Source of the DNA: Pseudomonadota bacterium | GTDB taxonomy: Bacteria; Pseudomonadota; Gammaproteobacteria; Burkholderiales; Burkholderiaceae_C | Direction: 5' to 3' | DNA: 64,000 nucleotides | Assembly (NCBI GenBank): GCA_041168905.1 | Contig: JBEEJZ010000027.1 | Coordinates: 8,005-72,004 of the forward strand | In this document: in pieces, positions 11,668 to 20,491 of the stretch | Layout: each line of letters starts with the position of its first letter | Position numbering within the stretch: position 1 is the first letter of the stretch | Program-made: the position numbers and the translations under genes | The notes under the pieces: generated by a model | Told to the model about the DNA's origin: nothing | What the model saw: the letters and a program-made list of their open reading frames with translations, nothing else | Databases searched by the model: none

Positions 11668-12852
11668 TCACCCCAGGCCGAGCAAGCCTTTCAGGGCGGG
11701 GCTGGGACGGTGGGCCATCACCTGGTCTTGAATGGCCTTGGGCGACAAGCCAAACACACGCTCCATCACCCGGGCATACACCGCAGCCAGGTCGATGCTG
11801 GCAGGTAAGTCACGCCCCTCAAAGAGTTGCTCTTTTTTCAGGCCGCGCCAGTCGGCATACACCCGGGAGCCGGTCAACAAGCCGCCAGCCAGAAAGCAGC
11901 AACTGCCCACACCGTGGTCGGTGCCGGTGGTGCCGTTTTCAGCTGCAGTGCGACCAAACTCGGTCACCGTCACCACCAAGGTGTTGACCCAGGCGTCACC
12001 CATGCCCTCTTTGTAGGCGCCGACCAGAGCGTCCAGTTCGCCCAGCCGGTCGGCATGGGTGCCGCTGTCTGCGCCCTGGCTGGCATGGGTGTCAAAACCA
12101 TGTTGCATATCGATCAGCCCAACGCGGGGGCCGTTGGGTTCACGCATCTCCTTGGCTGCCAGGCGGGCCAGTTGGGGCACCGCACGCGCGTTCTGGAACG
12201 AGGCGTTGTTCATGGCGCCCTGGCGCAGCGCCAGGTTCTCGGCCCGGATCACCGGCGCATAGGCAGCCAGCATGGGGTCATCGGCCCACAAGGCAGGCAA
12301 AGCATCTGCCACGCTCGCGCTCAGAGGCGGCATCCAGTTCGGAAACTGGGTGGTGGCTGCCGGGTTGCCGCGCAGGATCAGCGGCATGGGGATGGAAATG
12401 GACACACCTCCGCTCTGGCCGGAGGCCTGCATGGCGCGCCCGATCCAGCCCGAGGCGGACGTGTAGGGCTTGGCCATGCCGGTTTGCATGATGTCCTGCC
12501 CCTCAAAATGCGAGCGCCCCGTGTACCCAAAGCCAGTGCTGTGCACCACCGCCAGATGACCCGCCGCCCACAGGCTGTGCATGACCTTGAGCTGGGGGTG
12601 CAGCGCAAACGAGCCATCCAGCGGCAAGGCATTTTTAACAGCGATGTTGGCGCGCATGCTCTCGTACAGGGGGTCGGCCACCGGCGGCGCGGCGGTCAAG
12701 CCATCCATGCCACCCCGCAGCAGCACGACCAGCAGCCGGGGCTCATCTGCCTTGGGAGACGCCAGCGGCTCACGCAGGCCAGCAAAACTGAGGGCAGCCC
12801 AGGCGGCACTGCGCTGAATGAATGTTCTTCTTTGCATGGGCATTAACTCCAC
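11668..12852 (-). CDS. DUF1501 domain protein (Tat-exported, sulfatase/alkaline-phosphatase-like fold)
   Basis: 394 aa. Twin-arginine leader MQRRTFIQRSAAWAALSF. C-terminal signature VTVTEFGRTAAENGTTGTDHG. Confidence 0.85.
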   Translation of the reverse strand: MELMPMQRRTFIQRSAAWAALSFAGLREPLASPKADEPRLLVVLLRGGMDGLTAAPPVADPLYESMRANIAVKNALPLDGSFALHPQLKVMHSLWAAGHLAVVHSTGFGYTGRSHFEGQDIMQTGMAKPYTSASGWIGRAMQASGQSGGVSISIPMPLILRGNPAATTQFPNWMPPLSASVADALPALWADDPMLAAYAPVIRAENLALRQGAMNNASFQNARAVPQLARLAAKEMREPNGPRVGLIDMQHGFDTHASQGADSGTHADRLGELDALVGAYKEGMGDAWVNTLVVTVTEFGRTAAENGTTGTDHGVGSCCFLAGGLLTGSRVYADWRGLKKEQLFEGRDLPASIDLAAVYARVMERVFGLSPKAIQDQVMAHRPSPALKGLLGLG

Positions 12853-14321
12853 AACAGGGCAGGACTGACATGCAGCAGACCATAGGCCTGGCGATGGTCA
12901 CCTTTGGCGAGCGCGGCGCGGATGGGCTCACTGCCCAGCCCAGCAGCGGGCAGGTATTGATCAATTTGGGTGCGCAAACCCTCCACGGCGCGGTCGGGGT
13001 TGCTTATCAATTCGCGCAGCAGCACCGGCATCACCCGCACCCGCCGGTCGAGCATCTCCTTGGAAACCCAGTCACTCGAGCGGATCGGCCAGCCATTGGG
13101 CTGCGGGCACCGTGGCAAAGGCTGGCCCAGGTCGCCCAGCAAATAAAAGGTCTTGGTTCCACCTCGGTCGTCCAGCGGCACCACACGCGGCACCTCCACC
13201 CCGGTCAGGGTGAGGGTTTGCCACAGCCAGGTCTCGGGCGAGGTGAATTTGCGTGTGTTGTCGATGTGCGCCCAGCAGGCCTCCACCACCGCCTGGTGCA
13301 CCTTGGGCAAATCGCCCTGACTGCTGACAAAGGCTCGCTGCACATGGGCAACTGCAGCAGGCGGCGGCTCGTCGTCCAGAAAATACACACACAGCTTGTG
13401 CGCCAGATGCCGGGCCGTGGCGGGATGGTTGGCCAGGTCTGTGACCAGATCTTCCAGCTTGGCCGAGGGCCGAAACAGCGCGGAATAGGTCTTGCCCATG
13501 ACCTCTTGTGCCCCCGGCTCGTGATGGTTGAAGTCGAAGTAAGTACCCAGGGGCACACCTGCCTTGCGCCATTTGTCGGGCTTCATGTCGCGCCAGCCCG
13601 TCAGGATCAGGGTGGTGGCTTCCACATCTTTTTGGGTGTAGCCACTGGCCGGGCTCAGGGTAAACAACTCGAGCAGTTCGCGGCCCAGGTTCTCGTTGAT
13701 GCTGTCCTTCGTCCATTTTTCCCGGGCGGCTTTGGAACGCGGGCCGGTGTTGCGGTTGTTGTCCAGGTACACCAGCATGGCTGGGTGGGTGACCGCATGC
13801 CAGAGCATCTCGCGAAAACTGCCAGTCATCTTGTCGCGCAGCGAACGCTGGTAGGGGCCGATGAGCACATCGTTGTTTTGATTGCCCGGTGCCACCATGA
13901 AGTGGTTGGTCCAGAAGTGCCAGAAACGCTCAAACACCGGAGCGCGCCCGTAAACCGCCGTGGTGGCCCGCGCTTGCACTTCTTTCCAGTGCTCCATACG
14001 GCTGTAGGGAATCTCCACATCGCGCTTGCGCTCAGCCTCGAACTGGGCGCGCGGCAGCGTCTTGCCTTTGTCAAAGGAGGCTCTTTCTGCCTCCTGATGA
14101 CCTTGAAACGCCGTCATCACATCGTCCATGGACCAGAGCAGTTTGACCCAATCAGGCAGGTCGGAGCGTCGGGACCCGTCGCGCTCGATGATGTCAATGG
14201 GCGGCGCTTTGAGCAGTTGCGCCTGCGCCCACGCCACCGGATCGGCAGGCAGGGCCTGGTCGGCGGGCAGACCGAAAGCCACGCGCCGTGTGAATTTGCC
14301 GATGAGATGTTGCTGAGTCAT
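12843..14321 (-). CDS. DUF1800 domain protein
   Basis: The track ORF runs to 15074, antisense to lemA. I start at ATG 14321 (MTQQHLIGKFTRRVAFGL). The signature INENLGRELLELFTLSPASGYTQKDVEATTLILTGW is typical of DUF1800. Overlaps the DUF1501 gene by 10 bp. Confidence 0.8.
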   Translation of the reverse strand: MTQQHLIGKFTRRVAFGLPADQALPADPVAWAQAQLLKAPPIDIIERDGSRRSDLPDWVKLLWSMDDVMTAFQGHQEAERASFDKGKTLPRAQFEAERKRDVEIPYSRMEHWKEVQARATTAVYGRAPVFERFWHFWTNHFMVAPGNQNNDVLIGPYQRSLRDKMTGSFREMLWHAVTHPAMLVYLDNNRNTGPRSKAAREKWTKDSINENLGRELLELFTLSPASGYTQKDVEATTLILTGWRDMKPDKWRKAGVPLGTYFDFNHHEPGAQEVMGKTYSALFRPSAKLEDLVTDLANHPATARHLAHKLCVYFLDDEPPPAAVAHVQRAFVSSQGDLPKVHQAVVEACWAHIDNTRKFTSPETWLWQTLTLTGVEVPRVVPLDDRGGTKTFYLLGDLGQPLPRCPQPNGWPIRSSDWVSKEMLDRRVRVMPVLLRELISNPDRAVEGLRTQIDQYLPAAGLGSEPIRAALAKGDHRQAYGLLHVSPALLWS

Positions 14322-14456
14322 CAGGTGGCTCCCGGTGGGTACCTGCCCGAATGACGACCATCGGGGCTGGCGCTTTGCAGGCGGTGATTCTAGGAGCGGG
14401 CAACTGTGTGCGCCGTGCGGCCACAATAGCCTCATCAAGGACATTCGGAGCAGATC

Positions 14457-15029
14457 ATGAACATGGCAACTGGGGTTTTGTTGGGTGTGGCGGTGCTGGT
14501 GGTGGTGTATGTCATCAGTGCCTACAACCGGCTGGTGGCTGTCAAGCACGCCGTGGACAAGGCCTGGGCCAATATCGATGTGCTGCTCAAGCAGCGGCAT
14601 GACGAGCTGCCCAAGCTGGTCACGGTCTGCAAGGAGTACCAGCAATTTGAGCAAAGCACCTTGCAACAGGTGATTGCAGCCCGTGCTCAGGTCCAGACGT
14701 CTCGGGAGCAGCAGGACATAGCAGCCCTGGGCCGTGCCGAGGGCAGCCTGCGCAGCGGCCTGGGGCAGATTTTTGCGGTGGCCGAGGCCTACCCGGAGCT
14801 GCGCGCCAACGAGAGCTTTCAGCAATTGCAAAGCCGCATCAGCCAGCTGGAAAACGCCCTTGCCGACCGGCGCGAGTTTTACAACGAGGCCGTCAACATC
14901 AACAACGTTCGCATCGAACTCTTCCCCGACCGACTGATTGCACAGCGCTTTAACTTTGGCCCACGCGCCCTGCTGACCTTTGCTGCCGAAGAAAAGACCG
15001 ATGTGGACCTGAAGGCCCTGTTCCGCTAA
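14457..15029 (+). CDS. LemA family protein
   Basis: 190 aa with an N-terminal TM helix, then YNRLVAVKHAVDKAWANIDVLLKQRHDELPKLV...RREFYNEAVNINNVRIELFP. Confidence 0.9.
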   Translation: MNMATGVLLGVAVLVVVYVISAYNRLVAVKHAVDKAWANIDVLLKQRHDELPKLVTVCKEYQQFEQSTLQQVIAARAQVQTSREQQDIAALGRAEGSLRSGLGQIFAVAEAYPELRANESFQQLQSRISQLENALADRREFYNEAVNINNVRIELFPDRLIAQRFNFGPRALLTFAAEEKTDVDLKALFR

Positions 15030-15033
15030 GACC

Positions 15034-15930
15034 ATGATGCAGCGTTGGGGCCGCGCCTTGCGGCTGTGGCTCACATCTGGCGGCTATGTGATGTTGCTGA
15101 TCCTGGGGGCACACCTGGGCACGCCACAGGGCTGGCGCCTCAGTGTGGGCCTGACGGCTTTGATGGCACTGCTGGCGTGGCAACTGGTGCTCAAGCGCGC
15201 TCGCGCCATGGCAGACACCCCCACCTCCCACATCGCCTCGGCGGCCCAGGGCTACGTCGAATTGCAGGGCCAGGGTGCCCAGTTTGAGGGCTACCCGGTG
15301 TATGCACCCCACCACGGCCTGCCCTGCCTTTGGTACCGCTACAAAGTAGAAAAGCGGCAAGGCGACGATTGGAAAACCGAGTCGCAAGACGAATCCACCA
15401 CCTCTTTTTTCATTGACGACAACAGCGGCCGATGCACCGTCGACCCCGAGGGCGCCGAGGTGTTGCCCCAGCACAGCGAAACCTGGACCCAGGGCGACCG
15501 CCGCTACACGCAGGCGCTGATCCTGCCGGGTGAGCCGCTCTACATCCTGGGCGACTTCAAAACCCAGGGGGGCGACAGTGCCGATCTGAGCCTGAGGCGC
15601 GACGTCAGCGAATTGCTGGAGGACTGGAAGCGCGACATGCCAGCCTTGGCCCAGCGTTATGACAAAAACGGCGACGGCCAACTCGATCTGCAGGAATGGG
15701 AACAGGCCCGCAGCGACGCCCGACGCGAGGTGGAGCAGCTGCACCGCGACATCCGCGCCCAGCCGCACACCCACACCATCGGCCTGCCCACCGACGGCCG
15801 GCCCTACCTGATTTCATCGCACGCCCCAGAAAAACTGGGCCGCCGTTTTCGCCTGTGGGCCTACGCCCATGCCGGGGTGTTTTTGCTGGCTTTGGGGGGA
15901 TTGGGGTATGCGTGGCAGGCACATGCCTGA
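15034..15930 (+). CDS. GIDE (bacterial E3-ligase-like) domain membrane protein with an embedded EF-hand
   Basis: 298 aa with two N-terminal TMs. GIDE-like core GYVELQGQGAQFEGYPVYAPHHGLPCLWYRYKVEKR...FFIDDNSGRCTVDPEGAEV. Canonical EF-hand loop DKNGDGQLDLQE (15661-15696). C-terminal TM helix. Confidence 0.7.
   Translation: MMQRWGRALRLWLTSGGYVMLLILGAHLGTPQGWRLSVGLTALMALLAWQLVLKRARAMADTPTSHIASAAQGYVELQGQGAQFEGYPVYAPHHGLPCLWYRYKVEKRQGDDWKTESQDESTTSFFIDDNSGRCTVDPEGAEVLPQHSETWTQGDRRYTQALILPGEPLYILGDFKTQGGDSADLSLRRDVSELLEDWKRDMPALAQRYDKNGDGQLDLQEWEQARSDARREVEQLHRDIRAQPHTHTIGLPTDGRPYLISSHAPEKLGRRFRLWAYAHAGVFLLALGGLGYAWQAHA
15848..15915 (+). repeat. Direct repeat, copy 1 (3' end of the GIDE gene)
   Basis: 68 bp matching 16928-16995 with 3 mismatches, aligned by eye. 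The copies are spaced exactly 1080 bp apart. Confidence 0.9.
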
Positions 15931-16020
15931 CGCCTCGGCCCACACCTTCATTTCAAAATCACAAATAATCATCCATATATAACGCCATATACAATTTAAG
16001 CATTCATAAAAGTGTTTTAA

Positions 16021-16356
16021 ATGAAGACCCTCTCGCCTCCACCACTGCCGGTTGCGCGCAGCTTGGACCGCCTGGGCAAGGCGATTTCGCTCGCGCGCCG
16101 GCGCAGACACCTGACGCAGCAAGACCTGGCGGAACGCATCGCCACGTCCGCGAACACCGTGCGTCGTATGGAGGCGGGTTATCCGGGCACGGCGCTGGTT
16201 CACTTTGCAAGGGCCTTGCAGGTGTTCGGGGAGCTGGACAAGCTTGATCAGTTGCTTGACACCCCTCACGACACCATTGGCCTGACCCTGATGGATGAAA
16301 AATTGCCTCAGCGCGTGCGCAAATCCCGCAAATCACCAGAATCCGGGGCGTTCTGA
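16021..16356 (+). CDS. hipB: HipB-like XRE-family antitoxin/regulator
   Basis: 111 aa with HTH LGKAISLARRRRHLTQQDLAERIATSANTVRRMEAG. The stop overlaps the start of the hipA remnant (ATGA-type junction). Confidence 0.8.
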   Translation: MKTLSPPPLPVARSLDRLGKAISLARRRRHLTQQDLAERIATSANTVRRMEAGYPGTALVHFARALQVFGELDKLDQLLDTPHDTIGLTLMDEKLPQRVRKSRKSPESGAF

Positions 16357-16918
16357 TGGCCACCAAACCTGCTGTCAAACCCGCCGCCAGGTTAGCCCCC
16401 AGTCGCACCCAGATGAATGTCTTTCTGGGCAAGGCAGAAAAGCCGCTGGGACGGCTTATCTTCGTCAAAGACGGTCAACGGGAGTTTTCTCAATTCGCCT
16501 ACAGCGACGAATGGTTGGCAGATGCCCAGTTCTTTGATGTCTCACCTGACCTGAATCGCCAAAGCGGCTACCAACTTCGCAAGCCCCCCACCAAGAACGA
16601 CACATGCTTCTTCTTGGCCCTAGCCGATACCGAGCCAGATGCGTGGGGACGACGGGTGATCTGAACCCTTTCCCCGACAAGGATCCGGAATCCAAAACCT
16701 GGCTCAGTGAAGACAGCGGCCCGATCACCTCCATTCAACAACTGCTCGATCAAGCCGCACGCTTTGAGTTATCACAGCCACAAGCACAATCCATCCTTGA
16801 AGAGGTCACCACAGCGGTCAAGCGCTGGAAAGATGTGGCTATCTCAACAGAGGTTGGGCTGCAGCCGCATGAGCTCAATGACTTCAAGCCTGCGTTTGAC
16901 AGTAAAACCACAAATTAA
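16356..16918 (+). pseudogene. hipA: HipA-family toxin kinase, internally deleted and frameshifted remnant
   Basis: ORF 16356-16664 has an N-terminal HipA-coupling region (...FFLALADTEPDAWGRRVI*). From about 16655, in another frame: DLNPFPDKDPESKTWLSEDSGPITSIQQLLDQAARFEL...WKDV, the HipA C-terminus. The whole kinase core between them is missing: about 187 aa remain, versus about 440 aa for typical HipA. Confidence 0.8.
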
Positions 16919-16927
16919 GCAATCGCA

Positions 16928-16995
16928 TTCGCCTCTGGGCCTACGCCCATGCCGGGGTGTTTTTGCTGACTTTGGGGGGATTGGGGTATGTGTGG
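16928..16995 (+). repeat. Direct repeat, copy 2 (orphan duplicate of the GIDE gene 3' end)
   Basis: In the same relative frame it reads IRLWAYAHAGVFLLTLGGLGYVWGM*, with its own stop at 17002-17004. Confidence 0.9.
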
Positions 16996-17012
16996 GGGAT
17001 GTGAGCCCTGCC

Positions 17013-17432
17013 CTATTTGTAAGTCGACAACAGCAGGCTGGTTTCGGTCGTGGCTATGCCTTCGATCTGACGGATAGCGCCAAGCACGGCATCAAAGGCC
17101 TCCAGCGAATCGGCCCGTAACTCAGCCACGATATCCCAGCGGCCATTGGTACTGTGCAGGGCTTGCACGTTGGGGTGACCACGCAGACTGGCCATTACTT
17201 TGGAAGTCTGGTTGCCGTCTACCGCGACGCTCATCAGCGCGCGAATACGGGCCACCTCAACGGCCGGCTTCAGGCGCACGGTATAGCCCACGATGGTGCC
17301 GTCTTTCTCCAGTTTCGCGATGCGGTTTTGCACCGTCGCCCTTGCCACCCGCAGCTTCGCGGCCAATGCCACTGTGGACATGCGGGCGTTGTCGCGCAAC
17401 AAGCCTATCAGTTCTCGGTCCGTGTCATCCAT
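17013..17432 (-). CDS. Lrp/AsnC family transcriptional regulator
   Basis: 139 aa. The sequence DRELIGLLRDNARMSTVALAAKLRVARATVQNRIAKLEKDG is followed by a RAM-like C-terminal domain. Confidence 0.92.
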   Translation of the reverse strand: MDDTDRELIGLLRDNARMSTVALAAKLRVARATVQNRIAKLEKDGTIVGYTVRLKPAVEVARIRALMSVAVDGNQTSKVMASLRGHPNVQALHSTNGRWDIVAELRADSLEAFDAVLGAIRQIEGIATTETSLLLSTYK

Positions 17433-17597
17433 CGCAAAACTTTCATATCGTCACAACAACCTGTCAGTTTGCTTAATTAGCAGATCTTTTTGTTCATATT
17501 GTGCTCTTCTGACTGGCTCCATGCGCCGGAACAATGGAATCTGAATACAGAGACTCACCACTGCGTGGGCCCCAAACCCTACCTCCCAGAGCTTTAT

Positions 17598-18647
17598 ATG
17601 ACCCGCTTTATCGACGTCCCCGCCATGACCGAACTGATCCACACCATTGGCGTCAAAGACTTCATCGGTCAATTGGCAAACTACATTCACGATGACTTTT
17701 TACGCTGGCCCGAGTTTGAAAAATCTGCCCGTGTCGCCAACCATTCCGACATCGGTGTGATTGAACTGATGCCGGTTTCCGACGCCACGCGCTACGCCTT
17801 TAAATACGTAAACGGCCACCCCAAAAACACCGCCAAAGGGCTGTACACCGTGATGGCCTTTGGCTTGTTGGCTGAGGTTGATACGGGCTACCCCGTTTTG
17901 TTGTCCGAGTTGACATTAGCCACAGCCCTGCGCACCTGCGCCACCTCGCTCATGGCCGCCCGTGCTTTGGCGCGCACAAATGCCAAGCGCATGGCGCTGA
18001 TCGGTAACGGCGCACAAAGCGAATTTCAGGCGCTGGCCTTCCACGTTGGGATGGGGATTGAGGAAGTTGCCGTGTTTGACGTGGACAGTGCCGCCACCGA
18101 CAAGCTGATCGCCAACCTGAGCGCCTTCCCCACCCTGCGCGTGGTGCGTGCGGGCAGTACCGCAGAAGCCGTGGCAGGCGCCGACATCGTCACCACGGTG
18201 ACCGCCGACAAAACCTACGCCACCATCATCACCCCTGACATGCTGGAGCCCGGCATGCACCTCAACGCCGTGGGTGGCGACTGCCCCGGCAAGACCGAGC
18301 TGCATGCCGATGTGCTGCGCACAGCGCGGGTGTTTGTCGAGTTCGAGCCGCAAACCCGCATAGAAGGCGATATCCAGCAGCTGCCAGGCGATTTTCCTGT
18401 GGTGGACCTGTGGAAGGTGCTGGCTGGAGCCCAGGCTGGACGACAAAGTGCAGAGCAAATCACGGTGTTTGACTCGGTCGGTTTTGCGCTGGAGGACTAC
18501 TCCACGCTGCGTTTTGTGCACGAGCAGGCGCTGCGCCACAACATCGGTAGCGACATCGAACTGGTCCCCGAGGCGAGCAACCCCAAGGACCTGTTCAGCC
18601 ACACCCGCCGCCAGGCTGGTCGCCCGTGGCTGCGCCGTGCCGCATAA
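17598..18647 (+). CDS. Ornithine cyclodeaminase family protein
   Basis: The track ORF starts at 17490. I prefer ATG 17598 (MTRFIDVPAMTELIHTIGVKDF), which gives 349 aa. The ALIGNGAQSEFQ Rossmann motif is present. Divergent from an AsnC regulator, which is the classic arrangement. Confidence 0.85.
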   Translation: MTRFIDVPAMTELIHTIGVKDFIGQLANYIHDDFLRWPEFEKSARVANHSDIGVIELMPVSDATRYAFKYVNGHPKNTAKGLYTVMAFGLLAEVDTGYPVLLSELTLATALRTCATSLMAARALARTNAKRMALIGNGAQSEFQALAFHVGMGIEEVAVFDVDSAATDKLIANLSAFPTLRVVRAGSTAEAVAGADIVTTVTADKTYATIITPDMLEPGMHLNAVGGDCPGKTELHADVLRTARVFVEFEPQTRIEGDIQQLPGDFPVVDLWKVLAGAQAGRQSAEQITVFDSVGFALEDYSTLRFVHEQALRHNIGSDIELVPEASNPKDLFSHTRRQAGRPWLRRAA

Positions 18648-18749
18648 GTCCGTCGACGTGCCCCCAGCCATGCGCAACACCGTGTTTGCGCAAGCTCCCA
18701 GCGCCGTGTAACCGGCGGCTCAGCGCAATGTGCGCTGGCGGGTATTCAC

Positions 18750-20216
18750 CTATCGCCCAGGTAGCGCCGTGGGTACAGCCAACCTGGTTACCGTCTCTGC
18801 CAGGCCTGCTACCGATTGCGTGTTTTGCCACGCCAAGTATTCAGACCGGCGCAGTCGGTAACGCGCGATACTGCCCTCGTGCAACTGCTGCAAGGCAGTC
18901 ATCAGCACTGACGCAAACGCAGCTCGATCGGCCTCCTCAGCATATGCAACAGACAGCTGAGCAATGAGTTCTCGACCCGGTTGCTTTGCACCTTTGACAA
19001 CCGCCTGTACCGCTTGAATCAAGGCCTCACGGTACTTGATCTTCAAGGGGTCTGGCTCCACCATGGTTTGCGTGATGGCCAAGTAACGCTGACAAGAACG
19101 CTCGTAGGCCCAAACAAACACATCCCGCAACAACTCAACCTGGTTGAGCTCGTAAACACCCAACGTACCCTCAATGTAAGCACGCTCCGGAACATCGATA
19201 AACGACAAGGGGCACAGGTTGTGTTTGATCAGCGGGATATTTGCACCAATGCGAGAAACCCGCTTGTTCACATCTTCAAAGGGCTGCAGGTAGGGCAGCT
19301 GCACCATCAGGAAGAATGCCTGTTCGAAGGGGTCCGGGATGGCAGCGGCTTTGTCCAACAGAAGCAGAAAACTATCCTCAATTACTTGGGGCAAAGCCAG
19401 AGGGTGAAACACGGTGCCCGATACCTCGACTGGTCTGCGGCGCAACCTGCCGCTGGCTTGCGGGTCGCGCATCAGGTCCTGGGACAACACAGCGTGCAGG
19501 TTTTTGAACGTAAAGGCATCAAAGCCCACCTCATTCACGTCCTCAACCAGCATCTCGATAGCCGCCTTGTGGTTCAGAATCATCTGAGTCTCGATAGCAT
19601 CCTTGCCGCGAGCAATCTGGCCGAACTCGATCAAGTTCTGGGTATCGAGTCGGCTGTAGGTGTTGCCTTCCAACTTGGATGAGGCCCACGACAGATCCAC
19701 CAACAGCCGTCCCAGGATTTCGCGGGCGTAGGTGCCCGCCGGGCGCTCGCTCTCAGGGGTACGCCCCATATCGTGCAATTGACGGCGCAATGAGTCCGGC
19801 AAATAGAAACTGGTGCCAGGCTGGTAAGCCTGAAGAAACTCCCGCTGATAGCCCACTGGGCGACGGTGCATCAAGGCGCGGCGGACCTGATCACGAACGG
19901 CCGCGCCCTCCGCAGACACTGGTACGTACAACTCCGGTTCAGCAGTAGCCGTGGCCGTTGGGGTCTCTACACCTGCGAGCTGAATTACATCCTCTGATAC
20001 CGCCTTGTAGACCAAGGCGACGCTTTCACCCTCAGTGCGCAGTCGTTTTTCCGCAACGAGCTGGCCCAACCGTCGCTGCAGCGTGCGACGGTTGGGCTTG
20101 TGTGCGTTGAGCCGATCCAATTCAGCTTCAATGGCGGCAATACCAGCCCCATTGGGAAGTCCTGCCACGATGGCCTCAATCTGCAGGAGTTCTTCGGTTG
20201 ACTTGGCGCGTGGCAT
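18750..20216 (-). CDS. Fic/DOC family protein with N-terminal wHTH-like region and a degenerate active-site motif
   Basis: 488 aa. Inhibitory-helix-type motif SSKLEGN (S-x3-E-G). Fic loop reads QPFEDVNKRVSR (19251-19286), versus the canonical HPFx[DE]GNGRxxR. Confidence 0.8.
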   Translation of the reverse strand: MPRAKSTEELLQIEAIVAGLPNGAGIAAIEAELDRLNAHKPNRRTLQRRLGQLVAEKRLRTEGESVALVYKAVSEDVIQLAGVETPTATATAEPELYVPVSAEGAAVRDQVRRALMHRRPVGYQREFLQAYQPGTSFYLPDSLRRQLHDMGRTPESERPAGTYAREILGRLLVDLSWASSKLEGNTYSRLDTQNLIEFGQIARGKDAIETQMILNHKAAIEMLVEDVNEVGFDAFTFKNLHAVLSQDLMRDPQASGRLRRRPVEVSGTVFHPLALPQVIEDSFLLLLDKAAAIPDPFEQAFFLMVQLPYLQPFEDVNKRVSRIGANIPLIKHNLCPLSFIDVPERAYIEGTLGVYELNQVELLRDVFVWAYERSCQRYLAITQTMVEPDPLKIKYREALIQAVQAVVKGAKQPGRELIAQLSVAYAEEADRAAFASVLMTALQQLHEGSIARYRLRRSEYLAWQNTQSVAGLAETVTRLAVPTALPGR

Positions 20217-20236
20217 GTGCTGTCCTTGAAGTGGTA

Positions 20237-20301
20237 ATTTTGTCGTGCTTTGTCACCGAGGAGCGACAATTCACAACACCATTTTGTCGCACAAACTGTC
20301 G
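20237..20301. promoter_or_regulatory. Cluster of TTGTCG-type repeats upstream of the fic gene
   Basis: ATTTTGTCG occurs at 20237-20245 and 20281-20289. CGACAA (the inverted form) is at 20264-20269. Related TTGTCA is at 20250-20255 and CTGTCG at 20296-20301. All lie within about 85 bp of the fic start, in a lower-GC spacer. Confidence 0.35.
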
Positions 20302-20491
20302 CGCTTCAAGGAAATACTGTGGCGAATTGCTCAGAATGCTCAACCAACGTCAGTACGTCTAACTTTCCGCTTCCCTGCAGTTGAAACTCTTGCAAGCGAC
20401 GAAATGAATAATTGAAAACGTCTGGGCTCAGCCCGCCAACACCCTGTTCAGAAATAATGTCTCGTGGCCTGTACGCACGCCTCGTTCAATA

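What the first reader, a model, noticed from the sequence alone, without database searches (positions are those of the whole stretch)
15848..16995. 1080-bp hipBA mini-island bracketed by 68-bp direct repeats that duplicate the 3' end of the host gene
Positions 15848-15915 (the last 23 codons of the GIDE gene) and 16928-16995 are 65/68 identical and exactly 1080 bp apart. The distal copy keeps the reading frame and its own stop (IRLWAYAHAGVFLLTLGGLGYVWGM*, stop at 17002-17004).

Between the repeats lie an AT-rich spacer and the hipB/hipA module.

This is the footprint expected when an element integrates into the 3' end of a gene while supplying a replacement 3' end, as site-specific islands do at tRNA genes. 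However, no integrase is present. It is either a minimal or decayed element, or a toxin-antitoxin cassette moved by another mechanism.
Basis: seen in the sequence. Interest (0 to 1): 0.6.

Follow-up and report, generated by a model that had tools for sequence, protein, structure and literature searches.

The report
Integrase-less hipBA islet at GIDE gene end
A small toxin-antitoxin cassette (hipB intact, hipA toxin destroyed) was inserted into the last codons of a membrane-protein gene and is flanked by a 68-base duplication of that gene end; it is most likely the last surviving piece of a decayed genomic island, a known kind of relic rather than a new mechanism.

Summary
The two 68-nt copies (15848-15915 and 16928-16995, 65/68 identical) are the only copies in the genome.

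Four related assemblies (G001, G002, L139, L141) carry one copy and no hipBA, so they are empty sites. Two other independent assemblies (L031, L140) carry the same insertion.

- **Polarity:** the distal copy keeps the native gene tail (…GM*, identical to the tail in empty-site L139). The proximal copy is fused to a new 4-codon tail (QAHA*).
- **Content:** the insert holds only about 42 nt of unknown origin, the conserved hipBA promoter, hipB, hipA and 9 nt.
- **Toxin state:** hipA is dead. The window has a 733-nt internal deletion between TGATC microhomologies that removes the kinase catalytic loop. L031 has an independent nonsense codon. hipB is intact and under purifying selection.
- **Recombinase:** no integrase lies on the 77-kb contig.

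The same hipBA family normally rides on islands that carry a serine recombinase. Two other metagenome loci show integrase-less hipBA islets flanked by 50-70-nt duplications of other gene ends (mutS, an enolase-family gene), with pseudogene debris inside.

Best reading (about 0.5): a decayed, site-specifically integrated island reduced to its addiction module, like a CIME. The recombination mechanism itself is not proven. Interest is modest.

The parts
15034..15930 (+). Host target gene: GIDE-domain membrane protein with an EF-hand, partner of LemA (14457-15029). It now ends in the new tail ...AWQAHA*.
   Evidence: Pfam GIDE and LemA. Orthologues at 94% and 84% in G001 and G002. The LemA-GIDE pair is conserved in more distant relatives while the downstream gene varies.
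15848..15915 (.). Proximal 68-nt direct repeat (attL-like). It is the last 23 codons of the GIDE gene and is host-like in sequence.
   Evidence: It has 2/68 differences to G001, against 4/68 for the distal copy. It is identical in L031.
15916..15957 (+). Left end of the insert. It comprises a new 4-codon tail plus stop (CAG GCA CAT GCC TGA, 15916-15930, with dyad CAGGCA-CA-TGCCTG) and about 27 nt of unknown origin.
   Evidence: No counterpart in the empty sites G001, G002, L139 or L141. No match elsewhere in the genome, in 80 hipBA loci or in viral contigs.
15958..16020 (+). hipBA promoter/operator region (AT-rich, with TATAT-N6-ATATA dyads).
   Evidence: Alignment with the upstream regions of 8 other hipBA loci shows conserved columns across the last ~65 nt before the ATG. 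DNA homology to other loci starts 16-75 nt upstream of hipB.
16021..16356 (+). hipB antitoxin/repressor, 111 aa, intact.
   Evidence: Matches HTH_3/HTH_31 and TIGR03070 couple_hipB. It is 100% identical in L031. It differs from L140 at 5 nt, 4 of them synonymous. Its stop overlaps the hipA start (ATGA-type overlap).
16356..16918 (+). hipA toxin pseudogene. The N-terminal 102 codons and the C-terminal ~85 codons are joined out of frame after a 733-nt deletion. Residues ~103-346 are lost, including the NVDDHLQN catalytic loop.
   Evidence: Compared with full-length copies in L031, C63 and L038. Pfam HipA_C maps to residues 191-402 of the intact 430-aa homologue. The window stubs have no Pfam or NCBIfam hit.
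16657..16661 (+). Deletion junction: the single remaining copy of the TGATC microhomology.
   Evidence: L031 has TGATC at both deletion ends (1700-1704 and 2433-2437). The window has one.
16919..16927 (+). Right end of the insert: 9 nt (GCAATCGCA) between the hipA stop and the distal repeat.
16928..16995 (.). Distal 68-nt direct repeat (attR-like), now non-coding. It carries 3 states (C, A, T at repeat positions 8, 42, 64) seen in no native allele of the species group. L031 has a 4th change.
16996..17004 (+). Displaced native tail of the GIDE gene (GGG ATG TGA = GM*).
   Evidence: TGGGGGATGTGA is identical in empty-site L139 and one base different in G001 and L141 (TGGGGGAGGTGA).
17013..17432 (-). 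Right flank: Lrp/AsnC regulator. Its stop lies 8 nt from the displaced GIDE stop, which traps the distal repeat between two genes.
   Evidence: Pfam AsnC_trans_reg and HTH_AsnC-type.

Best explanation
The region 15916-16927 is what remains of a horizontally acquired integrative element. The element recombined with the last 68 nt of the GIDE gene. That event left one copy of the 68 nt on each side (attL-like and attR-like), pushed the native tail (GM*) to the distal side, and fused a new 4-codon tail to the gene.

The element was originally larger, carried its own recombinase or used one supplied in trans, and had hipBA as an addiction module. Deletions then removed everything not protected by selection. 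They could not take hipBA, because losing the antitoxin kills the cell. They could not take the proximal repeat, because it is coding. They were unlikely to take the distal repeat, because it sits in a 94-nt gap between hipA and the Lrp gene.

The minimal product was promoter-hipB-hipA between the two repeats (1745 nt plus the repeat), as still seen in L031. Later the toxin itself decayed, independently in two strains: a nonsense codon in L031 and a 733-nt microhomology deletion here. The likely reason is that a second, island-borne hipBA in the same genome makes the addiction redundant. hipB survives as an orphan repressor/antitoxin.

Shown:
- the insertion, the empty sites and the polarity;
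- the minimal content of the insert;
- two independent inactivations of hipA;
- no recombinase on the contig.

Inferred:
- that a site-specific recombinase made the junctions;
- that the element was once larger;
- the anti-addiction role of orphan HipB.
For: 1. Empty sites with one copy exist in G001, G002, L139 and L141. Occupied sites with identical junctions exist in L031 and L140.
2. The native tail is on the distal copy and the new tail is on the proximal copy.
3. The target is the extreme 3' end of a conserved gene, and the reading frame is preserved. This is the classical layout of islands at tRNA or protein-gene ends and of CIMEs (definition in PMC5704250).
4. Among 45 testable loci of the same hipBA family, two more integrase-less islets are flanked by long duplications of another gene's 3' end.
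   - L050: 70 nt, end of an MR/MLE enolase-family gene next to tRNA-Pro. It keeps a 53-aa stump of the gene that precedes hipB in intact islands.
   - L094: 50 nt, end of mutS. It keeps a frameshifted HigA-like antidote gene.
   - Sources.
   Such debris is what island decay predicts.
5. In L094, hipBA lies in the opposite orientation relative to the target gene, so hipBA is cargo and not the agent of insertion.
6. The usual home of this hipBA is an island with a primase-like gene, DUF6511, an AlpA-like HTH_17 gene, DUF2924 and a large serine recombinase. A copy sits in the same genome on C269 and C63.
7. L071 shows three TA cassettes in tandem separated by a 23-nt repeat, which looks like accretion at an att site.
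8. The insert has lower G+C (54-57%) than its flanks (62-69%).
Against: - No larger occupant of the GIDE site and no cognate integrase were found. No attP-like third copy of the 68-mer exists in the genome, in 400 family genomes or in viral contigs.
- The window islet contains no island debris at all. Only about 42 nt on the left and 9 nt on the right are not hipBA, so 'once larger' rests on analogy with L050 and L094.
- The recombinase seen on intact hipBA islands is a large serine recombinase. To my knowledge (not tested here) such enzymes do not leave 50-70-nt direct repeats, so a different, unseen (probably tyrosine) integrase has to be assumed.
- The proximal copy looks entirely host-like and the distal copy carries the private substitutions. 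A crossover at the far right end, or simple drift of an initially perfect duplication, fits equally well, so the repeats do not by themselves prove an attP mimic.
Confidence: 0.5

Rival explanations
1. The element was never larger. A hipBA-only, att-flanked mini-element is moved in trans by a recombinase encoded elsewhere, as a 'miniature island' comparable to a CIME or to a MITE among transposons. It repeatedly lands in gene 3' ends.
For: - The boundaries are extremely tight in the window: 42 nt before the promoter and 9 nt after the stop.
- In L071 a 23-nt repeat lies 64 nt before hipB and 2 nt after the hipA stop.
- In L050 the right repeat follows directly after the hipA terminator hairpin.
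- The genome holds about 10 tyrosine recombinase genes and 4 serine recombinase/DUF2924 pairs that could act in trans.
- Occupied (window, L031, L140) and empty (L139) alleles coexist among lineages about 95% identical.
- Synonymous divergence of hipB between the window and L140 (0.048) is about a third of that of LemA and GIDE (0.12-0.15).
Against: - L050 and L094 contain pseudogene debris of other island genes.
- hipBA orientation relative to the target differs between islets.
- The flanking repeats differ in sequence and length at each site, so no common recognition sequence is visible.
- The lower dS rests on 4 substitutions and can be explained by allelic recombination. The left 60 nt of the islet are as diverged as the backbone.
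- Tight boundaries are also the expected end point of selection-limited deletion.
Confidence: 0.15
2. Campbell-type homologous (RecA-dependent) insertion. A circularised DNA fragment from a related strain, containing the last 68 nt of a GIDE gene, a QAHA* tail and hipBA, recombined with the resident GIDE 3' end by a single crossover. This duplicated the 68-nt homology without any integrase.
For: - A single crossover with a circle gives exactly this topology.
- 68 nt is, to my knowledge, enough for RecA-mediated recombination.
- The three private substitutions of the distal copy could be the donor allele.
- No integrase and no attP-like copy were found.
Against: - It needs a donor lineage with GIDE(QAHA*)-hipBA and no duplication, and none was seen. 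Both strains whose distal side is visible have the distal copy.
- It also needs an illegitimate circularisation exactly 9 nt after hipA and 68 nt before the GIDE stop.
- It does not explain the analogous 50-70-nt duplications at mutS and at the enolase-family gene.
- The GIDE 3' part next to the repeat shows no raised divergence to G001 that would mark imported DNA.
Confidence: 0.15
3. A long target duplication was created at the moment of insertion by a route that needs no recombinase. Examples are staggered breaks 68 nt apart that are filled in, or replication template switching that captured a hipBA fragment. Both copies were then initially identical host sequence, and the distal one has drifted since.
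For: - The proximal copy matches native alleles.
- The distal copy's 3-4 changes (4-6%) match the neutral drift expected since insertion: the non-coding spacer differs 5.7% between the window and L140.
- The repeat boundaries are sharp on both sides.
Against: - I know of no bacterial mechanism that regularly gives 50-70-nt target duplications (own knowledge, not tested).
- Three independent cases all sit at the very 3' end of a gene with the frame preserved. That pattern is typical of site-specific elements.
- No terminal inverted repeats or transposase are present.
Confidence: 0.1
4. Artefact or chance: a misassembly of a metagenome bin, or a dispersed REP-like repeat unrelated to insertion.
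For: The genome is a 273-contig draft. A second hipBA copy is broken across contig ends (C269, C63), which shows that this repeat family disturbs the assembly.
Against: - The same structure appears in independent assemblies from other samples (L031, L140).
- There are only two copies in the genome, against 0 expected by chance.
- Relatives carry a single copy inside the orthologous gene.
Confidence: 0.01

Closest known systems
[quoted passage not shown] To my knowledge first described next to ICESt1/ICESt3 at the 3' end of fda in Streptococcus thermophilus. Definition in PMC5704250.
   Same: [quoted passage not shown]
- Sits at the 3' end of a protein-coding gene, and the gene stays intact.
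- Encodes no integrase or transfer genes.
- Related loci show tandem accretion (L071) and decay debris (L050, L094).
   Different: - No cognate ICE, IME or integrase is known for this site.
- Mobilisation in cis is untested.
- The content is reduced to a single TA operon.
- The repeat is 68 nt; from memory, the fda repeats are much shorter (about 27 bp).
- The host is a freshwater betaproteobacterium.
ccr-less pseudo-SCC elements at the 3' end of rlmH (orfX) in staphylococci (own knowledge).
   Same: - Recombinase-less element bounded by direct repeats that contain the last codons of a conserved gene.
- The gene's reading frame is maintained by element-supplied codons.
- Can persist as a remnant and be accreted.
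   Different: - SCC repeats are about 15-20 bp and are made by serine recombinases (Ccr).
- The cargo is resistance and other genes, not a lone TA pair.
- There is no sequence relationship.
tRNA- and protein-gene-targeting genomic islands with tyrosine integrases that restore the 3' end of the target (P4-like islands, islands at guaA and similar sites; own knowledge).
   Same: - Direct repeats of tens of bases that duplicate the target's 3' end.
- The displaced native end lies at the far side of the island.
- Lower G+C than the flanks.
- TA modules are common stabilising cargo.
   Different: The defining integrase next to one att site is absent here, and the element is only 1.0 kb (originally 1.7 kb).
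hipBA type II toxin-antitoxin system (HipA kinase plus HipB HTH repressor), including hipBA-like pairs carried by IMEs such as MGIVchUSA1 (PMC5704250).
   Same: - An HTH antitoxin gene lies upstream and overlaps a HipA-family gene.
- Intact relatives have the HipA_C domain.
- A palindrome-rich promoter is conserved.
- The pair is carried by integrative elements.
   Different: In this window the toxin gene lacks residues ~103-346 and is frameshifted, so the locus is an orphan hipB plus hipA stubs and not a working TA pair.

Membership tests
CIME-like decayed integrative element | [quoted passage not shown] | tested here: met
   68-nt repeats at 65/68 identity. The proximal copy is the GIDE 3' end and the distal copy carries the displaced native tail.
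CIME-like decayed integrative element | Lacks integration and transfer genes | tested here: met
   Only hipB and hipA stubs lie between the repeats. No Phage_integrase hit on the 77-kb contig C27. The serine recombinases are on other contigs.
CIME-like decayed integrative element | Derives from a larger ICE/IME/island by deletion | tested here: inconclusive
   No debris in the window islet and no larger occupant of the site was found. The analogous islets L050 and L094 do hold debris of island genes.
CIME-like decayed integrative element | Can be excised or mobilised by a related element's recombinase | not testable with these tools
An empty allele exists in the population (L139), but its origin is unknown.
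Integrase-encoding genomic island at a gene 3' end | Tyrosine (or serine) recombinase gene adjacent to one att site | tested here: not met
hipBA type II toxin-antitoxin | HTH (Xre-type) HipB antitoxin gene upstream of and coupled to hipA | tested here: met
   HTH_3/HTH_31 and couple_hipB hits. The stop and start codons overlap.
hipBA type II toxin-antitoxin | HipA kinase with a complete HipA_C domain and catalytic loop | tested here: not met
   The window copy has a 733-nt frameshifting deletion of residues ~103-346, and its stubs have no Pfam hit. The feature is met in relatives L038 and C63. L031 is full-length but has a nonsense codon at position 32.
Transposon / insertion sequence with target-site duplication | Transposase, terminal inverted repeats and a short (2-14 bp) target duplication | tested here: not met
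   No transposase ORF, no terminal inverted repeats among the inverted repeats listed, and the duplication is 68 nt.
Dispersed REP-like repeat | Many copies scattered over the genome, independent of insertions | tested here: not met
   Two copies in the genome and one in each relative, inside the orthologous gene.
Integron gene cassette | attC recombination site (imperfect inverted repeats) downstream of a promoterless ORF, inside an array next to intI | tested here: not met
   The repeat is host coding sequence, the cassette has its own promoter, and no intI-like integrase lies on the contig.

The most novel reading that the evidence does not exclude
hipBA operons of this freshwater family are themselves minimal mobile units: promoter to stop codon plus a few bases. 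A recombinase supplied in trans inserts them repeatedly into the extreme 3' ends of conserved genes with 50-70-nt duplications. That would make TA cassettes a class of non-autonomous 'miniature islands' rather than passive survivors of island decay.
Probability: 0.12. Interest if true: 0.6.

Novelty: new member of a known kind. Interest (0 to 1): 0.35.

Why it matters
This is a clean, dated natural example of how integrative elements end. Everything is deleted except the addiction module and the att scars. The toxin is then lost as well, in two different ways in two sister strains, and an orphan antitoxin remains.

All the stages are available among closely related lineages: empty, occupied with a full-length toxin gene, and occupied with a deleted toxin gene. 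The locus could therefore serve as a small model for three things:
- TA-limited genome reduction;
- anti-addiction by orphan antitoxins against a resident island-borne paralogue;
- identifying a still unknown recombinase that uses the GIDE gene end as attB.

If the minority reading is right, it would add a non-autonomous mobile form of TA operons.

Tried and rejected
- **Third, attP-like copy of the 68-mer or of the 42-nt left end.** Searched in the own genome, 400 family genomes, 80 hipBA loci and viral contigs. Only chance matches of 16 nt or less turned up.
- **Larger occupant of the GIDE site.** Examined via GIDE homologues. Only empty or hipBA-only states were found. P0126/L142 is a truncated gene call at a contig end and is not informative.
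- **Records behind the metagenome loci.** These could not be searched for integrases.
- **Empty site for the L050 islet.** The nearest genomes are only about 80% identical and lack the tRNA-Pro synteny.
- **Direct repeats around the neighbouring extra block** (Lrp-OCD-Fic, 17005-20250): none.
- **GIDE fragment next to the Lrp copy of G002:** none.
- **Direct repeats around a serine-recombinase island on C79:** none within the contig.
- **Imported-DNA signature in the GIDE 3' part versus G001:** none.
- **Plasmid collection:** only distant HipA genes at about 67% identity.
Full report
**1. Observation**

The sequence at 15848-15915 and 16928-16995 is a 68-nt direct repeat, 65/68 identical and spaced 1080 nt start to start. 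With up to 3 mismatches it occurs twice in the window, against 0 in 100 shuffles. It occurs twice in the whole 3.37-Mb, 273-contig draft genome.

- The proximal copy is the last 23 codons of a 298-aa GIDE-domain membrane protein (15034-15930) that follows a LemA gene.
- The distal copy has no indels relative to it and runs into a stop at 17002-17004.
- Between the copies lie hipB (16021-16356, 111 aa; HTH_3/HTH_31 and couple_hipB hits) and two overlapping out-of-frame ORFs (16356-16664 and 16604-16918). These ORFs have no family hit of their own.

**2. hipA is a deletion remnant**

A second hipBA in the same genome is split over contigs C269 and C63. A near-identical strain, L031, carries full-length copies. 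Both show that the window copy lacks 733 nt.

- The junction lies between two TGATC pentamers, of which the window keeps one (16657-16661).
- Because 733 is not a multiple of 3, the C-terminal stub is out of frame.
- The loss covers residues ~103-346 of a 431-codon gene. It includes the NVDDHLQN catalytic loop. Pfam HipA_C maps to residues 191-402 of the intact 430-aa homologue.

**3. Related genomes: empty and occupied sites**

| Assembly | GIDE identity to window | State | Gene tail |
|---|---|---|---|
| G001 (same genus) | 93.8% | single copy, no hipBA | …AWGR* |
| G002 (same genus) | 83.8% | single copy, no hipBA | …VWRLG* |
| L141 | 93.9% (G001-like) | single copy, no hipBA | …AWGR* |
| L139 | 95.3% | single copy, no hipBA | …AWGM* |
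| L031 (ENA assembly from another sample) | 98.6% | occupied | …AWQAHA* |
| L140 (Logan run) | 95.3% | occupied (left junction and hipB visible) | …AWQAHA* |

- The last 12 nt of L139 (TGGGGGATGTGA) are identical to the tail after the window's distal copy.
- L031 has the whole structure: the GIDE gene with the QAHA* tail, hipB, a full-length 1296-nt hipA, the distal repeat and then Lrp. Its hipA has a nonsense codon at position 32.
- The insertion is therefore real and polymorphic among lineages about 95% identical.
- The toxin gene was inactivated twice independently after the window and L031 lineages separated.
- hipB is identical in the window and L031. It differs from L140 at 5 nt, 4 of them synonymous.

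**4. Polarity and state of the two copies**

The native tail is on the distal copy. The proximal copy is followed by a new tail, CAGGCACATGCCTGA (QAHA*), which has no counterpart in empty sites.

At the three positions where the copies differ, the proximal copy carries states found in native alleles. The distal copy carries C, A and T, which no native allele of the 94-95% group has. L031's distal copy has a fourth change.

Two readings fit:
- the distal copy came with the element and the crossover lay at the far right of the identity block; or
- the copies were identical at insertion and the distal one, now non-coding, has drifted.

Its 4.4% divergence is in line with the 5.7% seen in the islet's non-coding spacer between the window and L140. 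The 3' part of the GIDE gene shows no excess divergence to G001 that would mark imported flanking DNA.

**5. Content of the insert**

DNA homology to 80 other hipBA loci from metagenomes begins 16-75 nt upstream of hipB and stops 10-24 nt before the hipA stop. The AT-rich 'spacer' aligns with their promoter regions.

Only about 42 nt on the left (15916-15957) and 9 nt on the right (16919-16927) are not hipBA. These short ends match nothing else available. G+C is 54-57% in the insert against 62-69% in the flanks.

**6. Where this hipBA normally lives**

In L038, L053, L054, L061 and L100, and on C269/C63 of the same genome, hipBA sits inside a conserved island. The island carries a primase-like gene, DUF6511, an AlpA-like HTH_17 gene, two unknown genes, DUF2924 and a large serine recombinase.

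The genome has four serine-recombinase/DUF2924 pairs. It also has about ten tyrosine recombinase genes, none of them on the 77-kb contig that holds the window.

**7. Analogous islets**

Of 45 loci with enough flank on both sides, most have no flanking repeat. Three do.

- **L050.** A 70-nt repeat (69/70 identical) duplicates the end of an MR/MLE enolase-family gene plus downstream sequence, next to tRNA-Pro. The 2.4-kb interior holds hipBA and a 53-aa stump of the gene that precedes hipB in intact islands.
- **L094.** A 50-nt repeat duplicates the end of mutS. The 2.6-kb interior holds hipBA, in the opposite orientation relative to the target gene, and a frameshifted HigA-like antidote gene.
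- **L071.** Three TA cassettes lie in tandem (a putative antitoxin ORF plus a putative GNAT-type toxin ORF, assigned by eye from the translations and not checked against a family library; a divergent hipBA; and this hipBA). They are separated by a 23-nt repeat.

None of these interiors encodes a recombinase.

**8. Interpretation**

The topology, the choice of a gene's extreme 3' end with the frame preserved, the debris in the analogous islets, the variable orientation of hipBA and the island-borne home of the family all fit one model. An integrative element was site-specifically inserted and then eroded down to its addiction module. That is a CIME-like relic (definition: PMC5704250).

Tight boundaries are the expected end point of this process:
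- deletions cannot enter hipBA while the toxin is active;
- they cannot enter the proximal repeat, which is coding;
- they are unlikely to remove the distal repeat, which is confined to 94 nt between hipA and the convergent Lrp gene.

Once a second hipBA was resident (its HipB is 88% identical), loss of the toxin became tolerable, and it happened twice.

Several things are not shown:
- that an integrase made the junctions;
- which integrase it was;
- that the element was ever larger at this site.

The recombinase seen on intact islands is a serine recombinase, a type that to my knowledge does not leave long repeats. An unseen tyrosine integrase therefore has to be assumed.

Three rivals remain open:
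- a never-larger, trans-mobilised hipBA mini-element;
- a RecA-dependent Campbell insertion of a circular fragment;
- a duplication generated at insertion without a recombinase.

One hint for recent spread is that hipB synonymous divergence between the window and L140 (0.048) is lower than that of LemA and GIDE (0.12-0.15). This rests on four substitutions. The left 60 nt of the islet are as diverged as the backbone, so allelic recombination inside the islet explains it as well.

**9. Verdict**

This is a new member of a known kind of relic. Interest is modest. The mechanism is inferred at about 0.5 confidence.

Noticed in passing
window 17005-20250 and 20251-20332: Relative to G001, G002 and L139, the block Lrp-OCD-Fic replaces 28-69 nt. 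The left breakpoint lies exactly after the displaced GIDE stop codon. The TTGTCG-rich motif upstream of fic (20251-20332) is conserved downstream of the GIDE gene in G001 and G002, although they have no fic there. No direct repeats flank this block.
   Followed up: partly
window 18708-18712 vs L031 4485-5325: The sister strain L031 has a DDAH-family gene (310 aa) between the ornithine cyclodeaminase gene and fic. The window lacks these 841 nt.
   Followed up: partly
own genome contigs C269, C63, C82, C79, C92, C48: A second, apparently intact hipBA is split over two contig ends. It lies in an island with primase-like, DUF6511 and HTH_17 genes. The genome holds four serine recombinase plus DUF2924 pairs, so several related islands are present.
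   Followed up: partly
L107 1-3430: Tandem arrangement of hipA, hipB and a hipA copy with a ~735-nt internal deletion. This is another independent case of hipA gutted while hipB stays whole.
   Followed up: no
L071 400-4850: Three toxin-antitoxin cassettes in a row (a putative antitoxin/GNAT-type pair read by eye, a divergent hipBA on the minus strand, and this hipBA). They are separated by the 23-nt motif AAAGGGGCCAGGCTCGGATTTTC.
   Followed up: partly
window 11706-14420: The DUF1501/DUF1800 gene pair upstream of LemA is absent from the orthologous position in G001 (94% relative) but present in G002 and L142.
   Followed up: no
window 15916-15929: The first bases of the insert form a short dyad, CAGGCA-CA-TGCCTG, right at the proximal junction. 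Its significance is unknown.
   Followed up: no
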